Source: Mytilus californianus
Taxonomy: Eukaryota
NCBI RefSeq assembly: GCF_021869535.1
Contig: NW_026262723.1
Location: 3,472,001-3,536,000 of the forward strand
Direction of reading: 5' to 3'
DNA length: 64,000 nucleotides
In this document: one piece after another, positions 39,001 to 45,000 of the stretch
Numbering within the stretch: the stretch's first letter is position 1
Layout: every line of letters begins with the position of its first letter
Made by a program: the position numbers

Positions 39001-42000
39001 ACATCGACGTTATATAATAAAATATAGCAACACACAATATATATATATATAAAAAAAGCAAGAGTAACATAATCCACCACTTAACCCAACACAAAACTCA
39101 GGATGAACTCAAGTGCCTCGGAAGAATAAACAGTATCGGAACCACCAACAGTATCCGTCATGCTGCTCATGAAAAGTACAAGGTCATTGCTAAATTTATT
39201 TATGATGCAATTGACGCCAAAAGGATGATGAAATTGTGCCAAAATCAAATGCAACATATTTGATGATATTCGGTGAAAACGAAACAAAACTCTGGAATAT
39301 TGTGTCATCATCTATATACTCCATATTCAAATTCTGATGAAATGTTGTTTCATTAAAGTGTAAAGTTTACAATGAGAAAATTTAATTCAGTTCATTCATA
39401 AACGTAATTTATGGCAAAAAATTAAAGTTTGATGAATTGTCCATTTTTTAAAATAGTTTCAAAAAGATATCGATTTCGGAATAAGATTGATTTATTTCTA
39501 CGCAACCTCGTCTGATTGGTTAAATATGTTAAAAAATAATAATTTTAGCACTCATATAGCCCGATGAAGATGGGCAGATGCTGTACCCTCTTACCGACAA
39601 TCCTTTTATCACATTTGAAGTGAGTCTTGCTTGCATCGAAAGACACACAAACAATATCATCAGCATAGGTTCATGCAGCCCCCCCCCCCCCCAAAAAAAA
39701 AAAAGCACGTGCTGTTATTATACACATACAAGAAATCGTCTGAATATTAAAAGTTATATACAAAATGGAGTCTACCACTAAAGTCAACTCTTGGTGCTAT
39801 CCTAAATAATGTAATGTGTCAAACCTTAACTCATCGATGTTAATTTTCTAGCAACTGGTATTATTGATAACAGCAATAATGGCGCGGATACCCGGTATTT
39901 AACAGGATTTCGTGCCCATCCACCATGTTCCATCTAAATGTCATAAATAATTAAATAATGATGTACGGCATATATAAGTGACACAGGAAGGCTATCACAA
40001 CAAAACAATCTTGAGTTAAACATAATGACTACAGTCTTGATTTTGGTAATAGAGTACACGTCACTAAGTAGTAGTACCTTGTTCTCTCTGAAAAAATGGA
40101 AATTATTAGTCGACGAAAAAAATTAGAAACATCATGCCGAAGAGAAAAAAGACGAGGTGATAAACAACAGCCAACAAAACACTACAAAGAGAACTGAAGA
40201 TAAAGCAATACGAACACTACAAAAAACCGTCTACAACACGTATGTAGAAGGATAAGCTTTTCTACTGTCCTACTTTGTGAAAGTAATAAAAAATTAAGTT
40301 AGTTTCACTGTATATCGCCATCTTGAATTGTAAGATAGCAGCACACAATCATCTAGTTCTTTGCTTAACTCTGCAAATGTCTTTAGCAAGAATGCAAATT
40401 TATATGTAAGACTGTTTATATAGATAAAGAAATGTAAGAGATTGATTGTATTAATTAGATTGTTTTTTACAAATATAATTTTGTTTTTGTTGGACTCAAC
40501 TTTTCTACTCAGCCATACAAGGGGAGATACATGTTACTCTTACAGTAAAATATTCATAAAGGAATCTTAATGAAATTTTTATTTTTTACTTGCATAAAAA
40601 CAGGTTTCGTTACACCTTTATTTCTTTTTATTTTCTAAAAACATATTATATAACCTATCTTCTCATATGTAATTCAAATTTTTATCTGATAGATTTCTAT
40701 GGTAAGAGGCAATTCCCTCTGACACAATTGATCTTACCAAATATCATTTTGACCCCCGTGTTCAACCCAAAAACAATTTACGTATTTTCCTTTCAAAAAT
40801 TTTACCATCATTGAGCACGTGTTAAAGCTTTTTCTGGAAATGTGTATCGTGCGCAGTTACATTGTTGTCAATGGTTTACATTTTTTACTTGTACTAAAAA
40901 CGCATCAGGATTATAAATTTGTACAGAAAACGCTCGTTTCGTCTACATAAGACTCACCAGAGGCGCTCATAATAGATGTTCCGATTTACATTCTAACTAT
41001 TCTCCTTAAATGCCTCATGTACTGATAAATATTTTTATTTATATTTCAAATCTTTACATAGGACGTCTCGAACTTTGGCTTTTATCCTTATCCTGATAAT
41101 TGTTCCAAATTATATTCCAAATAATCTTGTTCTAAAATTTGAACTTTTGATCAAAATGGTCTGTATGAATACCACTCTTATAAAAGTTCTACATTTATTA
41201 TTAATATTTCAGGAGACCTTGACTTGGTTTCTGGTCCGAATTTTACACACCCATGTCAATCTGTCTGCAGTTTCATTGACATCACGAACTTTTCAAAATT
41301 GAGATAACTTACGAATATAAATATCGCCTCCAGAAATGCAACATGCAATGTTTAAACTGCTGCCTCATATATCAAAATGTCTTCTGTTCTGATGAAACTT
41401 TGTATTCTGGCATTTGTAGCCACAGTTGGTAAGTAACTTTTTCATTATCATTTAATGAATTTACTCTTGAAGATTAAATCTGTAATTCATAATTAAATGA
41501 TTCTTCATTTAGTTTTAATCAAAGGACATTAGAGTTAGCGTTAGGGTTAAGGTATAAAACCACTAATTCATAGCCCCATTGCTTTCTATGTTAAATTCTG
41601 CAAATTCAAGCATTAATGGCTACTTTGTCTTAAGTTCAAATAAAGTGGCAGTTATTTCATGTCAAAACTGTACCTTATCCTGACTTGTGCTGAAAAAATC
41701 AACATACCTTTAATTGCATATTAGAGCGTACTGGTTCCCGGAAGTTTGATAGTACAAAAACAGGAACTTCTGATCTGAACAACAGGCCAAATGAGCCCTC
41801 CTATTAAAATTTCATATACTTCTTTATTATTCAAATAAAACTTTCAATAAGGGTTCTACAGTGATCCCAAGTCCCCAAGCTTTCATTTGATACTAAAACT
41901 ACCCAAATATTCCAACTATTGACAAAGATACAGCTATGCGTAGGAACTATTTTGTTTACAATATGTACTACTTTCTAGTATGTTCTTTCCAACCGGGCCT

Positions 42001-45000
42001 GAATTAGTGGTTCTATACCTATAACAGCACCAAACTTGTTATATTGACTTCTGCTTGACTTAATTTCCTTCTATGATCTATTTCTAGCATAGAAAAACAC
42101 ATCAAGCTTTTGTCAAAACACTATATCACTGAATTCGAGCTCAAATTGGACTGGTAGTAGCATATGCGTTAAACAAAGAAAACTACTTATGGATACTAAT
42201 AGTGACAGATATAACACTTTTTCAATTTTTCCCAGCTCTGATTTGTTAATATCTACTCAAATAACAGTGTTCTTACCTATATGTTTATTTTTATCAGAGA
42301 TTCTTCCTTCAATATAAATACAGTGGTCCAAACATAAAATATAATTGATAATTTTGTCCCCCCTTTTTTCTACATGTTGGAAAAGGAGAGTGATTTGGTA
42401 AAAAACCATACTTTTATGTATAAACATGGATCAACAAGAGCAATTTATGTATCTCCAAGCTAGACAACTTGCTAAAATGGTTATAAAATGCATTTCAAGT
42501 GAGATTTTGGATTTCCTACATAAGTATACACCAATTTTCCTTGAAATAAGTAATTCACTAAGAAACACAATAAAACATGAACACTCACTAGATAATTTGA
42601 CCAAAAACAATATTTATACTGTAAACTAGTCATGATATACAAGTCTCATTGGTTTCAGTGTTAGATAATCCAAAAATTAAAATTTCGGGTAAAATCTTAA
42701 CTGTGTGCATGCTAAATGACCAAAAAAGGCTAAAATACCTTAGTTTAGCAATTTGAGGGTTGTAACTTGACACTAACATAATTGTTACATAAAAAAAATA
42801 ATGTAACATGATTTCTGACAACAAATGTGACCAATTTTTACTGTAAAGGGTATGATTTCTAAAAATAGAATTTCACATGCCTGTCAGTAATAGGTATAAA
42901 ACCACTAATTCATAGCCCCATTGCTTTCTATGTTAAATTCTGCAAATTCAAGCATTAATGGCTACTTTGTCTTAAGTTCAAATAAAGTGGCAGTTATTTC
43001 ATGTCAAAACTGTACCTTATCCTGACTTGTGCTGAAAAAATCAACATACCTTTAATTGCATATTAGAGCGTACTGGTTCCCGGAAGTTTGATAGTACAAA
43101 AACAGGAACTTCTGATCTGAACAACAGGCCAAATGAGCCCTCCTATTAAAATTTCATATACTTCTTTATTATTCAAATAAAACTTTCAATAAGGGTTCTA
43201 CAGTGATCCCAAGTCCCCAAGCTTTCATTTGATACTAAAACTACCCAAATATTCCAACTATTGACAAAGATACAGCTATGCGTAGGAACTATTTTGTTTA
43301 CAATATGTACTACTTTCTAGTATGTTCTTTCCAACCGGGCCTGAATTAGTGGTTCTATACCTTAAGGTTAGGCTTAGGGTAGCTGTCAAATTTATGCTCA
43401 ACAATTTTACACAACTTCAAATTAACATATTTGATTTATAACATAGACAAACCTAGTTCCAAAAATTACCATAAGTCCAAAAAGAAAAAATTAACAATGC
43501 ATAGAATCGATAAATGTAACAGCATTTAGTGCATAAACACTAGATGTTATCAAATTATCCATTGCATTAACATGATTAAGAGTGAAATCAAGCTTTTTCA
43601 TTTTTTTTTGGAATATTCCTATCAGTAACTTTGTGAATAATAATAAACTTAAAGGATAGCAACCTCAGACATTATAAAACGCCACCAGTGTCTGAGCAGA
43701 AAGTTGATGAACCACAGTTATGCCAAAGACCCTTTTCCTTTTCTATAAAAGTTCATTGGAAAATACCAAAATCTTGTTGATAAATATTCAGTTTCAACTT
43801 CACAAAGAATACTTGATGGTCTTGAAGGATATATTCTAGGTACTGACGTTGTTTATCATCTTAATTACATGTTAAAGTGTTTTTCGTATTTGTTTATTTA
43901 CATTTTTAACCTTATGTCAAAAAATGGGATATATAATTTATATAAATAAGAAGATGTGGTATGAGTGCCAATGAAACAACTCTCCATCTAAGTCACAATG
44001 TAAAAAAAGTAAACAATTATAGGTCAAAGTACGGCCTTCAACACGGAGCCTTGGCTCATACCGAACAGCAAGCTATCAAAGGCCTCAATTTGATTAGTCT
44101 ATTTTTGGTAATATCCTTTTGGCGTGACTCGGTATTTGTACATCTCGCCATTGTGTTATTGTGCTACGGTCATCTTTTGTATGTTTGTCTTTCGTATTTA
44201 CTTATGTGCTTTGTCTATAGAGTGTCTACATGTCAATTTATTTTTAATTGTTGACATAGTTGTTTGTTTTTATATTGATTAAGTTAATAACACAAGTTGA
44301 CTGCTGTTCCTCAATTTTTGACACTTTTACCTATTGTGTCTGTTTGTTTTGCTAACACATAGTTGTCAATATAATGGAATTTTACCCGACTGTTATACAC
44401 GTGAGAGGTTTAGCTAGCTATTAAACCTGGTTTAATCCAACATTGTCTACATAATGAAATGCGTGTACCAAATCAGGAATATGACAGTTGTTTTCCATTC
44501 GTTTGATGTGTTTGAGCTTTTGATTTTGCCATTTGTTAAGGGATGTTACGTTTTGAATTTGCCTCTGAGTGCGGATTTTTTTTAATTTATTTTTTATTGA
44601 ATCAAAGAACATCATGTGCTTTTTTTTTATATCAAATAATGAAATCCTTATGAAACAGTTTTTCTTCGTGAAGCAAATAAAACCAAAAGTCGAAATAAAT
44701 GTTATCACTCAAAATGTAATTTATATTATTCTTCTTTGACTTTTGATTTTGATTGCCTGCCTTGAACATGGTTACTCTTTGTGTATCATTTGTTTATAAA
44801 AATTAGACACATTTCAACATTCATACTTTTTATGAAAGGATACATACAAATAAATCATTTTTTTTTATTTTAGTATTTTGTGCATGTCCAAATAATTGGA
44901 GTCATTATGAAGACAAATGTTTCTTTCTAAGCCGTGACAACGAGACATTTGCCGATTCACTGGTGAGTTAAAATGAAAAGAGCGGAGTGAGGGTTCCGAA

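What the first reader, a model, noticed from the sequence alone, without database searches (positions are those of the whole stretch)
41551..43361. Young, complete composite DNA transposon (KolobokP architecture) with a short non-coding interior
Seen: two 469-bp direct repeats with no difference found by eye, each with its own TIR; TTAA at the outer ends only (inner flanks TATA and AATA). Known from memory: KolobokP has ~450- or ~660-bp LTDRs around a transposase plus His-Me nuclease and is rich in bivalves. Here the 873-bp interior has no such ORF, so it is a non-autonomous derivative or carries cargo, very recently inserted in a lectin intron.
Basis: partly seen in the sequence, partly recalled or inferred. 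Interest (0 to 1): 0.65.

Follow-up and report, generated by a model that had tools for sequence, protein, structure and literature searches.

The report
Small non-coding KolobokP-type transposon in mussel
This is an ordinary, apparently young, non-coding copy of a recently described kind of jumping DNA (KolobokP type, two identical long direct repeats around a short middle) sitting in the first intron of a mussel lectin gene.

Summary
Two identical direct repeats (469 bp; the identity runs 471 bp, 0 mismatches), each ending in its own 20-bp inverted repeat (19 of 20), enclose an 873-bp interior. TTAA lies at the two outer ends only.

The sequence shows that the whole 1,811 bp went in as one piece. 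Both flanks are halves of a TTAGNN hexamer array found nowhere else in the window. The halves are in phase once the element and one TTAA are discounted.

The host is a Mytilus mussel. The site is intron 1 of a perlucin-like C-type lectin gene.

Every structural hallmark of KolobokP given by Kojima & Bao 2022 (PMC9587614) that could be tested is met. The exception is the 20-bp inverted repeat, slightly over the reported 11-18 bp.

The interior has no transposase, no nuclease, no RNA family and no open frame longer than chance. An interior-derived ORF has five variant relatives on at least seven other short contigs. So the interior is repeated DNA, not local intron.

Not shown: sequence kinship of the repeats to a catalogued KolobokP family, the autonomous partner, genomic copy number, the assembly's accuracy, and the exact age.

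Verdict: non-autonomous KolobokP-type monomer, a new member of a known kind, low interest.

The parts
41529..41546 (.). Left half of the target: three hexamers TTAGAG TTAGCG TTAGGG (telomere-repeat-like array)
   Evidence: TTAG at 41529, 41535 and 41541, all in phase 3 mod 6. TTAGNNTTAG occurs only 3 times in the window, all at the two flanks of the element.
41547..41550 (.). Left target-site duplication, TTAA
41551..42019 (+). Left long terminal direct repeat (LTDR), 469 bp, termini 5'-GG...CC-3'
   Evidence: identical to 42893-43361, with the identity running 41550-42020; longest open stretch is 47 aa, and 264 of 300 shuffles reach it.
41551..41570 (+). Left TIR of the left LTDR (the outer end used for the composite)
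   Evidence: 20 nt, 19 of 20 complementary to 42000-42019.
42000..42019 (-). Right TIR of the left LTDR (an inner end)
42020..42892 (+). Internal region (INT), 873 bp, non-coding. It begins TATA and ends AATA.
   Evidence: no Pfam or PHROGs family above cut-off, no Rfam family near its gathering score, no tRNA, and ORF lengths as in shuffles; unique within the window.
42402..42626 (+). Open stretch inside INT (75 aa; 67 aa from its ATG) with orphan relatives on other contigs. It serves as a marker that INT is repeated elsewhere and is probably not a gene.
   Evidence: relatives P0011-P0015, aligned at 79-93% identity, on at least 7 contigs of 1,273-1,373 bp. Their N-terminal parts differ in length and frame; no relative outside its own cluster among 1.84 billion representatives.
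42893..43361 (+). Right LTDR, 469 bp, identical to the left one
42893..42912 (+). Left TIR of the right LTDR (an inner end)
43342..43361 (-). Right TIR of the right LTDR (the outer end used for the composite)
43362..43365 (.). Right target-site duplication, TTAA
43366..43379 (.). Right half of the target: GG, then TTAGGC TTAGGG
   Evidence: TTAG at 43368 and 43374, phase 0 mod 6. The element plus one TTAA is 1,815 bp, which is 3 mod 6, so the two halves are in one phase.
41429..44873 (+). Intron 1 (3,445 bp) of a perlucin-like C-type lectin gene, the host of the insertion. Exons are 41377-41428, 44874-44962, 45573-45678 and 46404-46636.
   Evidence: (Lectin_C on the last exon, E 2.4e-11). Exons were compared one by one and not joined.

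Best explanation
The stretch 41551-43361 is one copy of a non-autonomous, composite-like DNA transposon of the KolobokP type: LTDR (469 bp), INT (873 bp), LTDR (469 bp).

Shown:
- It entered a TTAA inside a short telomere-repeat-like hexamer array in intron 1 of a Mytilus C-type lectin gene.
- It entered as a single unit and duplicated the TTAA.

Inferred from the family's published description:
- It encodes nothing of its own. It must be moved in trans by a Kolobok-type DDD/E transposase made by an autonomous KolobokP elsewhere in the genome.
- That transposase would bind the inverted repeats at the ends of the LTDRs. Use of the two outermost ends moves the whole composite. Use of the two ends of one LTDR would move or remove a solo LTDR.
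- The identity of the two LTDRs means they shared a template recently. This could be through recent formation and transposition of the copy, or through repeat-to-repeat repair or unequal crossover in place.

Its effect on the lectin gene, if any, would be that of 1.8 kb of extra intron carrying five AATAAA hexamers on the sense strand. That effect is untested.
For: Anatomy:
- 471-bp identity with 0 mismatches.
- Own TIRs, 19 of 20 complementary. The motif hits 4 of 4 unit ends and nowhere else, with 0.04 expected.
- TTAA at the outer ends only (chance about 9e-5).

Single insertion:
- All 3 TTAGNNTTAG matches of the window sit on the two flanks.
- The two halves are in the same 6-bp phase once 1,815 bp are discounted.

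INT is not local DNA:
- An INT open stretch has 2 cluster representatives and 5 distinct variants on at least 7 other contigs.

Non-coding:
-.

Host:
- Mytilus, by 97-100% identity of the last lectin exon to seven named Mytilus proteins (P0001-P0007).

Published definition (PMC9587614):
- LTDRs of about 450 or 660 bp, with examples of 473 and 480 bp.
- Own TIRs of 11-18 bp, termini RR...YY, TSDs of 3-5 bp, and TTAA for Kolobok.
- Non-autonomous families of 1,738-3,261 bp.
- The INT of one family begins and ends with TATA.
- The lineage is listed for M. galloprovincialis and M. coruscus, and the authors say the architecture is unlike any other DNA transposon.
Against: - No protein or DNA similarity ties this element to any catalogued KolobokP. 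There is no transposase and no His-Me nuclease remnant in INT.
- No autonomous partner lies in the window. Of 95 open stretches of 75 aa or more, 92 were scanned and the other 3. None matched a transposase, reverse transcriptase or integrase family.
- A search with an LTDR open stretch found no relatives, so nothing shows directly that the LTDR is repeated elsewhere.
- The TIR (20 bp) is a little longer than the 11-18 bp reported.
- The RR...YY rule is only two bases. The boundary is ambiguous by one base on each side. A TA duplication with a 471-bp unit also fits the outer ends, but not the inner ones.
- The inner flanks (TATA, AATA) are not TTAA.
Confidence: 0.8

Rival explanations
1. A composite made by chance from two copies of a TTAA-targeting MITE of another superfamily (piggyBac-type or unclassified). 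The two copies trapped a piece of DNA and now move it, with no kinship to KolobokP.
For: The TTAA duplication is shared by piggyBac (PMC9587614 Background). No sequence link to Kolobok was obtained. The termini here (TTAA then GGTAT) are not the AG/AGGRR termini listed for Xenopus Kolobok elements (PMC6004289 passages).
Against: The termini are GG...CC, the RR...YY signature that the paper uses to tell Kolobok from piggyBac. The repeat length of 469 bp falls in the constrained ~450-bp class, and the total length falls in the published non-autonomous range. The host genus has KolobokP.
Confidence: 0.1
2. An assembly artefact. The real locus holds a solo LTDR or a longer (LTDR-INT)n-LTDR array, and the assembler produced one monomer with two perfect repeats.
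For: Perfect identity over 471 bp is also what a collapsed or mis-joined repeat gives. The paper notes that long repetitive KolobokP arrays are not always well assembled.
Against: There is no N or gap in the window. The second copy ends exactly at the TIR and the TSD, and the flanks are in phase. A false duplication would not be expected to respect element ends. INT exists on other contigs.
Confidence: 0.07
3. Two independent insertions of the same 469-bp MITE about 870 bp apart, with local intron DNA between them.
For: Each unit is a complete TIR-bounded element. Solo LTDRs are said to move on their own.
Against: Neither unit has matching duplications: TTAA with TATA, and AATA with TTAA. The hexamer array is split by the whole 1,811 bp, and nothing of it lies between the units. 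The DNA between the units has relatives on other contigs.
Confidence: 0.02
4. A miniature LTR-type retroelement (TRIM-like), in which identical terminal direct repeats arise from reverse transcription.
For: There are two identical direct repeats and a 4-bp duplication. The paper itself draws the analogy.
Against: The repeats begin GG and end CC, not TG...CA, and they carry 20-bp TIRs. The first 30 nt of INT contain no TGG-type primer-binding start. The last 30 nt contain no purine tract. The TG...CA, primer-site and purine-tract criteria are from general knowledge and PMC9587614's Discussion.
Confidence: 0.01

Closest known systems
Non-autonomous KolobokP families (e.g. KolobokP-4N1_CorFlu, 2,637 bp with 473-bp LTDRs; eight non-autonomous families of Crassostrea gigas, 1,738-3,261 bp), from Kojima & Bao 2022, PMC9587614
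   Same: LTDR-INT-LTDR layout. LTDR in the ~450-bp class. Each LTDR has its own TIRs. RR...YY termini. A 4-bp duplication at the outer ends only. No transposase. A bivalve host. INT begins with TATA, as in KolobokP-1_MeMe.
   Different: The element is near the lower end of the reported lengths. The TIR is 20 bp against the 11-18 bp reported. INT ends in AATA rather than TATA.
[quoted passage not shown]
   Same: The same terminal architecture, and presumably the source of the enzyme that moves this copy.
   Different: Neither protein, nor any detectable remnant of either, is present here.
Bacterial composite transposons (IS-flanked)
   Same: Two complete TIR-bounded units in direct orientation mobilise what lies between them when the outermost ends are used. 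Each unit can also act alone.
   Different: In bacteria the flanking IS encodes the transposase and the middle is cargo. Here the flanking units encode nothing, and in autonomous relatives the enzyme gene is in the middle.
Xenopus T2-MITEs / XKol (Kolobok superfamily), PMC6004289
   Same: A TTAA target and purine-purine termini. They are non-autonomous and moved in trans.
   Different: These are simple TIR elements without long direct repeats. Their termini are AG/AGGRR, and here GGTAT follows the TTAA.
TRIMs (terminal-repeat retrotransposons in miniature)
   Same: Small, non-coding, with two direct terminal repeats. Solo repeats and tandem arrays occur.
   Different: TRIMs are RNA-mediated, with TG...CA ends, a primer-binding site and a purine tract. 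None of these is seen here.

Membership tests
KolobokP (composite-like Kolobok lineage) | [quoted passage not shown] | tested here: met
   469-bp units at 41551-42019 and 42893-43361 with 0 mismatches, and an 873-bp INT.
KolobokP (composite-like Kolobok lineage) | LTDR length of about 450 bp or about 660 bp | tested here: met
   The LTDR is 469 bp. The paper lists 473- and 480-bp LTDRs in the ~450 class.
KolobokP (composite-like Kolobok lineage) | Each LTDR has its own short TIRs (11-18 bp reported, perfect or imperfect) | tested here: met
   20 bp with one mismatch, present at all 4 unit ends. This is slightly longer than the reported range.
KolobokP (composite-like Kolobok lineage) | Termini 5'-RR ... 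YY-3' | tested here: met
   GGTATA...TATACC. If the unit is read as 471 bp, the termini are AG...CT, which is also RR...YY.
KolobokP (composite-like Kolobok lineage) | A target-site duplication at the outer ends of the composite (3-5 bp in KolobokP; TTAA for Kolobok in general) | tested here: met
   TTAA on both outer sides, TATA and AATA inside. The flanking array is in phase after discounting 1,815 bp.
KolobokP (composite-like Kolobok lineage) | A Kolobok-clade DDD/E transposase in INT (autonomous members only) | tested here: not met
   there is no such ORF. The copy can therefore be filed only as a non-autonomous, structurally assigned member.
KolobokP (composite-like Kolobok lineage) | A His-Me finger (His-Cys box) nuclease on the complementary strand of INT (most autonomous members) | tested here: not met
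   the minus-strand open stretches of INT match no family. The 80-aa stretch at the right end of INT has no hit.
KolobokP (composite-like Kolobok lineage) | LTDR and TIR sequence similarity to an autonomous KolobokP family of the same genome | not testable with these tools
   No eukaryotic genome or Repbase collection was available. The genome-contig scans gave 0 hits.
KolobokP (composite-like Kolobok lineage) | A repeated family with monomers, solo LTDRs and multimers in the genome | tested here: inconclusive
   INT-derived ORF relatives lie on at least 7 other contigs. No evidence was found for the LTDR. There are no further copies in the window.
KolobokP (composite-like Kolobok lineage) | A host within the known range (7 animal phyla, richest in bivalves; Mytilus listed) | tested here: met
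   the lectin exon is 97-100% identical to seven named Mytilus proteins (P0001-P0007). Table 1 of PMC9587614 was read.
piggyBac-type MITE | A TTAA duplication with piggyBac-type termini, not RR...YY | tested here: not met
   TTAA is present, but the termini are GG...CC. PMC9587614 uses these termini as the discriminating rule. The usual piggyBac terminal motif is recalled and was not tested.
LTR retrotransposon / TRIM | TG...CA repeat ends, a primer-binding site after the 5' repeat, and a purine tract before the 3' repeat | tested here: not met
   the ends are GG...CC. INT starts TATAACAGCACC..., with no TGG. INT ends ...CCTGTCAGTAATA, with no purine run.

The most novel reading that the evidence does not exclude
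The LTDR+INT unit of this family may exist as the free circular 'translocatable unit' that Kojima & Bao proposed (their Fig. 5b) but never observed. The start-to-start spacing here is 1,342 bp. All the contigs that carry relatives of the INT open stretch are 1,273-1,373 bp long. Two of them, at 1,372 and 1,373 bp, are what a 1,342-bp cycle would give in an assembly with 31-base words. The word size is recalled and comes from no call. If so, this small, identical-LTDR copy would belong to a currently active family and would give a direct handle on the disputed KolobokP pathway. The dull explanation is at least as good: an assembler closes LTDR-INT-LTDR or a tandem array into a cycle.
Probability: 0.05. 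Interest if true: 0.55.

Novelty: new member of a known kind. Interest (0 to 1): 0.2.

Why it matters
This matters little beyond annotation.

It is a clean, textbook-quality example of a non-autonomous KolobokP-type monomer. The target site can be read from the flanks alone. At 1,811 bp it lies near the short end of the published range, which narrows what such an element needs in cis: two LTDRs and under 0.9 kb of non-coding middle.

It sits in an immune-type lectin gene of a mussel, so it may serve as a presence/absence marker. Mussels being noted for gene presence/absence variation is my recollection, not a result of any call. The element accounts for more than half of the 3,445-bp intron 1. 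The neighbouring paralogue's first intron is roughly 0.8 kb, estimated.

Tried and rejected
1. Other copies in the window. blastn with word 7 and E up to 1 found only the two units and no second INT.

2. An empty site in the neighbouring lectin paralogue. Similarity between the two genes stops at 41475 / 54517, before the insertion site. It resumes only at exon 2, so there is no paralogous empty site.

3. Coding or RNA content.
- Pfam on 7 open stretches of the element gave only sub-threshold noise: MGP3_C and DUF6356 at E 0.04, below their cut-offs.
- PHROGs on 2 INT stretches gave nothing.
- Rfam at E up to 1 over 40500-44500 gave 2 hits, both about 20 bits against gathering scores of 80. 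One overlaps the left end of the element, and I take both as chance.
- There is no tRNA in the window.

4. Relatives.
- The INT ORF gave 2 clusters.
- The LTDR open stretch gave no candidate. That query was only 47 aa, and gene callers rarely predict such short ORFs, so this is weak evidence.
- A representative search with P0011 returned only its own cluster.
- Exact look-up of 4 window ORFs found none of them in the collection.

5. The two genome-contig scans (bacterial and archaeal genomes only), with the TIR motif and with an INT 28-mer, gave 0 hits, as expected.

6. An autonomous partner in the window: none found.

7. Rejected readings: two independent MITE insertions, a TRIM, and a simple tandem duplication. 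For the last, the second unit is followed by TTAA plus the hexamer array, not by a second INT.

8. Not checked:
- the paper's Tables S1 and Data S1-S2, because supplements are closed. These may already list this very family for Mytilus.

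
Full report
**1. The observation**

Reading the region and extending the match base by base shows that 41550-42020 and 42892-43362 are identical over 471 bases. There are no mismatches and no further identity on either side.

The repeat finder lists the same pair, with the family display cut at 300 nt. It also lists inverted repeats at the ends of each unit. Inside the 469-bp unit the arms are 20 nt with one mismatch.

A 20-nt motif for the unit end, allowing up to 3 mismatches, matches 4 places in the 64-kb window. These are exactly the four unit ends. 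The chance expectation is 0.04, and 0 of 100 shuffles reached 4.

The outer flanks are TTAA at 41547-41550 and 43362-43365. The inner flanks are TATA and AATA. The interior is 873 bp. TTAA occurs at 0.0096 per position in this window, so two TTAA flanks by chance would be about 9e-5.

**2. One insertion, read from the flanks**

The left flank reads TTAGAG TTAGCG TTAGGG and then the TTAA. The right flank reads TTAA, GG, TTAGGC, TTAGGG.

The pattern TTAGNNTTAG occurs 3 times in the whole window on the plus strand and 0 times on the minus strand. All three lie on these two flanks. The left TTAGs are at positions equal to 3 mod 6 and the right ones at 0 mod 6. The element plus one TTAA is 1,815 bp, which is 3 mod 6. 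The two halves are therefore one hexamer array in one phase, interrupted by the element and a duplicated TTAA. I computed the phase only and did not write a joined site.

The interior is not local intron sequence, because nothing of the array lies between the units. It also excludes two independent MITE insertions. That reading is further contradicted by the unmatched flanks of each unit.

**3. Where it sits**

The last exon downstream carries a C-type lectin domain (Pfam Lectin_C, E 2.4e-11). It is 97-100% identical to seven named Mytilus proteins, P0001-P0007, from M. galloprovincialis, M. californianus, M. trossulus and M. edulis, annotated perlucin-like or C-type lectin. That search returned 10 proteins among 15 candidates.

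Database proteins laid on the window exon by exon (tblastn) and the N-terminal signal peptide give these exons: 41377-41428, 44874-44962, 45573-45678 and 46404-46636, with GT/AG borders. Their lengths add to 480 nt, or 159 codons plus stop, which equals the 159 aa of P0005. I searched the model exon by exon and left the joined step out.

Intron 1 is 41429-44873 (3,445 bp), and the element with its duplication makes up 1,815 bp of it.

A second lectin paralogue lies at about 54.4-57.6 kb. Its first intron is much shorter and shares nothing with the insertion site, so it gives no empty-site comparison.

**4. What the element contains**

No ORF of 30 aa or more exceeds 67 aa; 14 such ORFs overlap the element. 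The longest stop-free stretch in INT is 80 aa, and 38 of 300 dinucleotide shuffles reach it. In the LTDR it is 47 aa, and 264 of 300 shuffles reach it.

Seven open stretches of the element gave no Pfam family above cut-off, and two gave no PHROGs family. Rfam gave two chance-level hits, at about 20 bits against gathering scores of 80. There is no tRNA. Composition is like the surrounding intron, at 28-35% G+C.

The LTDR has no internal repeat structure beyond its TIRs. There is no TGG-type primer site at the start of INT and no purine tract at its end, so an LTR/TRIM reading fails.

**5. Is it repeated elsewhere?**

There is no other copy in the window. No eukaryotic DNA collection was available. 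Two scans of bacterial and archaeal genomes gave 0 hits, as expected.

As a proxy I searched predicted-protein collections. The 67-aa INT ORF has two cluster representatives of 84 aa, at 93% and 76% identity. One cluster holds four members. Together these are five distinct variants on at least seven contigs, and all the contigs are 1,273-1,373 bp long.

In the alignment the C-terminal 60-odd residues are conserved. The N-terminal part differs in length and frame among the variants, and the window's copy is one of the shortened forms. This is how drifting non-coding repeats behave, not a gene under selection.

A search of 1.84 billion representatives with P0011 found only its own cluster. The ORF is therefore not a remnant of a transposase or nuclease.

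I conclude that INT is repeated DNA with diverged copies. The short, uniform contig lengths fit a repeat that assemblers cannot extend. A 47-aa LTDR stretch found nothing. That is weak evidence, because such short ORFs are rarely predicted.

**6. Comparison with what is known**

I read these parts of Kojima & Bao 2022 (PMC9587614): outline and abstract, Results parts 1-2, Discussion part 1, Background, passages and Methods. The paper defines KolobokP as follows:
- an INT between two LTDRs of about 450 or 660 bp;
- each LTDR with its own TIRs of 11-18 bp;
- termini RR...YY;
- TSDs of 3-5 bp, with TTAA for Kolobok in general.

The paper gives autonomous copies of 4.0-4.7 kb and non-autonomous families of 1,738-3,261 bp in the Pacific oyster. 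It reports frequent solo LTDRs and multimers. It also notes one family whose INT begins and ends with TATA.

The lineage is listed for Mytilus galloprovincialis and M. coruscus. The architecture is said to be unlike any other DNA transposon.

The present copy meets each structural criterion: a 469-bp LTDR, termini GG...CC, a TTAA duplication, a total of 1,811 bp, and an INT that starts with TATA. The one small departure is a 20-bp TIR.

It lacks the two proteins, so it can be filed only as a non-autonomous, structurally assigned member. The consensus sequences that would settle family membership are in supplements I could not open. This very family may already be catalogued there.

A 2026 review (PMC13565253, one passage) says the nuclease-driven multimer model still awaits experimental confirmation. 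Xenopus Kolobok elements share the TTAA target and purine termini, but their termini are AG/AGGRR (PMC6004289 passages). A bivalve repeat survey notes that Kolobok is almost exclusive to bivalves among molluscs (PMC10294476 passages).

**7. How it most likely works**

Shown: a single integration at TTAA with a 4-bp duplication.

Inferred from the family description:
- The element is moved in trans by a Kolobok-type DDD/E transposase that acts on the TIRs.
- Use of the outermost pair of ends moves the composite. Use of the two ends of one LTDR gives solo-LTDR movement or loss.
- Recombination between the LTDRs gives solo LTDRs, multimers, or an LTDR-INT circle.

No autonomous element is in the window. 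Across the 95 open stretches of 75 aa or more, no transposase, reverse transcriptase or integrase family was found.

**8. Age**

Zero differences in 469 bp give a 95% upper bound of about 0.3-3.2 million years since the two repeats last shared a template. This uses assumed rates of 1e-8 to 1e-9 per site per year. The rates are assumptions and come from no call.

Unlike LTRs, LTDRs are not made identical by the act of insertion. They could also be homogenised in place by the repair routes the paper discusses. 'Young' is therefore likely but bounded, not measured. The intact TTAA pair agrees with youth.

**9. Verdict**

This is a non-autonomous KolobokP-type monomer in intron 1 of a Mytilus lectin gene. 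It is a new member of a known kind and may already be catalogued. Interest is low.

No sequence here was taken for human.

The virus-like stretch that the operators mention appears to be the polymerase-like open stretches at the window's far end. I only described it; see the notes in passing.

Noticed in passing
window 61662-64000, + strand: This is probably the virus-like stretch the operators mention. Several open stretches are interrupted by stops and at least one change of frame, and the region runs off the window's end. One stretch has a weak Endonuclease_7 (His-Me finger) match, below Pfam's cut-off (E 0.006) and in PHROGs (E 0.0095). Its nearest Atlas clusters are eukaryotic 'DNA-directed DNA polymerase' / Endonuclease VII proteins (score 0.94). 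It has no match among solved structures. From memory it resembles the protein-primed B-family polymerase genes of Polinton/Maverick-like elements, but no tool named it. It lies 18 kb from the finding, and nothing links the two. I described it only and joined nothing.
   Followed up: partly
window 43936-44088; also 11851-12005, 19520-19668 (-), 19677-19811, 28958-29089: A short interspersed repeat of about 150 bp has five copies in the window, with a mean column identity of 80%. One copy lies in the same lectin intron, 570 bp downstream of the element. Two copies sit head to head at 19.5-19.8 kb. It was not classified.
   Followed up: partly
window 54326-57600, and 34673-35910: A second perlucin-like C-type lectin paralogue lies in tandem, with exons near 54.4, 55.3, 56.3 and 57.3-57.6 kb. 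A further duplicate of the upstream region of the first gene lies at 34.7-35.9 kb, at 74-86% identity. The locus is a tandem lectin cluster.
   Followed up: partly
window 46686-46798: A partial, diverged duplicate (about 79%) of the end of the last lectin exon lies directly downstream of the stop codon.
   Followed up: no
contigs behind P0011-P0015 (not readable here): All contigs that carry relatives of the INT open stretch are 1,273-1,373 bp long. This is close to the 1,342-bp LTDR+INT spacing of the element. It could reflect cycles or tandem arrays in assembly graphs, or a circular form. It remains unexplained.
   Followed up: no
window 3487-3793: A 36-bp tandem repeat with 8.7 copies at 85% matches creates a 106-aa repetitive ORF. 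It has no Pfam family.
   Followed up: no
window 13500-14666 (+) and 633-1490 (-): There are two long uninterrupted ORFs. One is a 388-aa Ser/Lys-rich ORF without any Pfam family. The other is a 285-aa ORF with thioesterase-like domains (4HBT_2 at E 2.7e-07; Acyl-ACP_TE_C).
   Followed up: no
window 41639, 41834, 42569, 42981, 43176: Five AATAAA hexamers lie on the sense strand of the lectin gene inside the element. They are possible premature 3'-end signals within intron 1, but this is untested.
   Followed up: no
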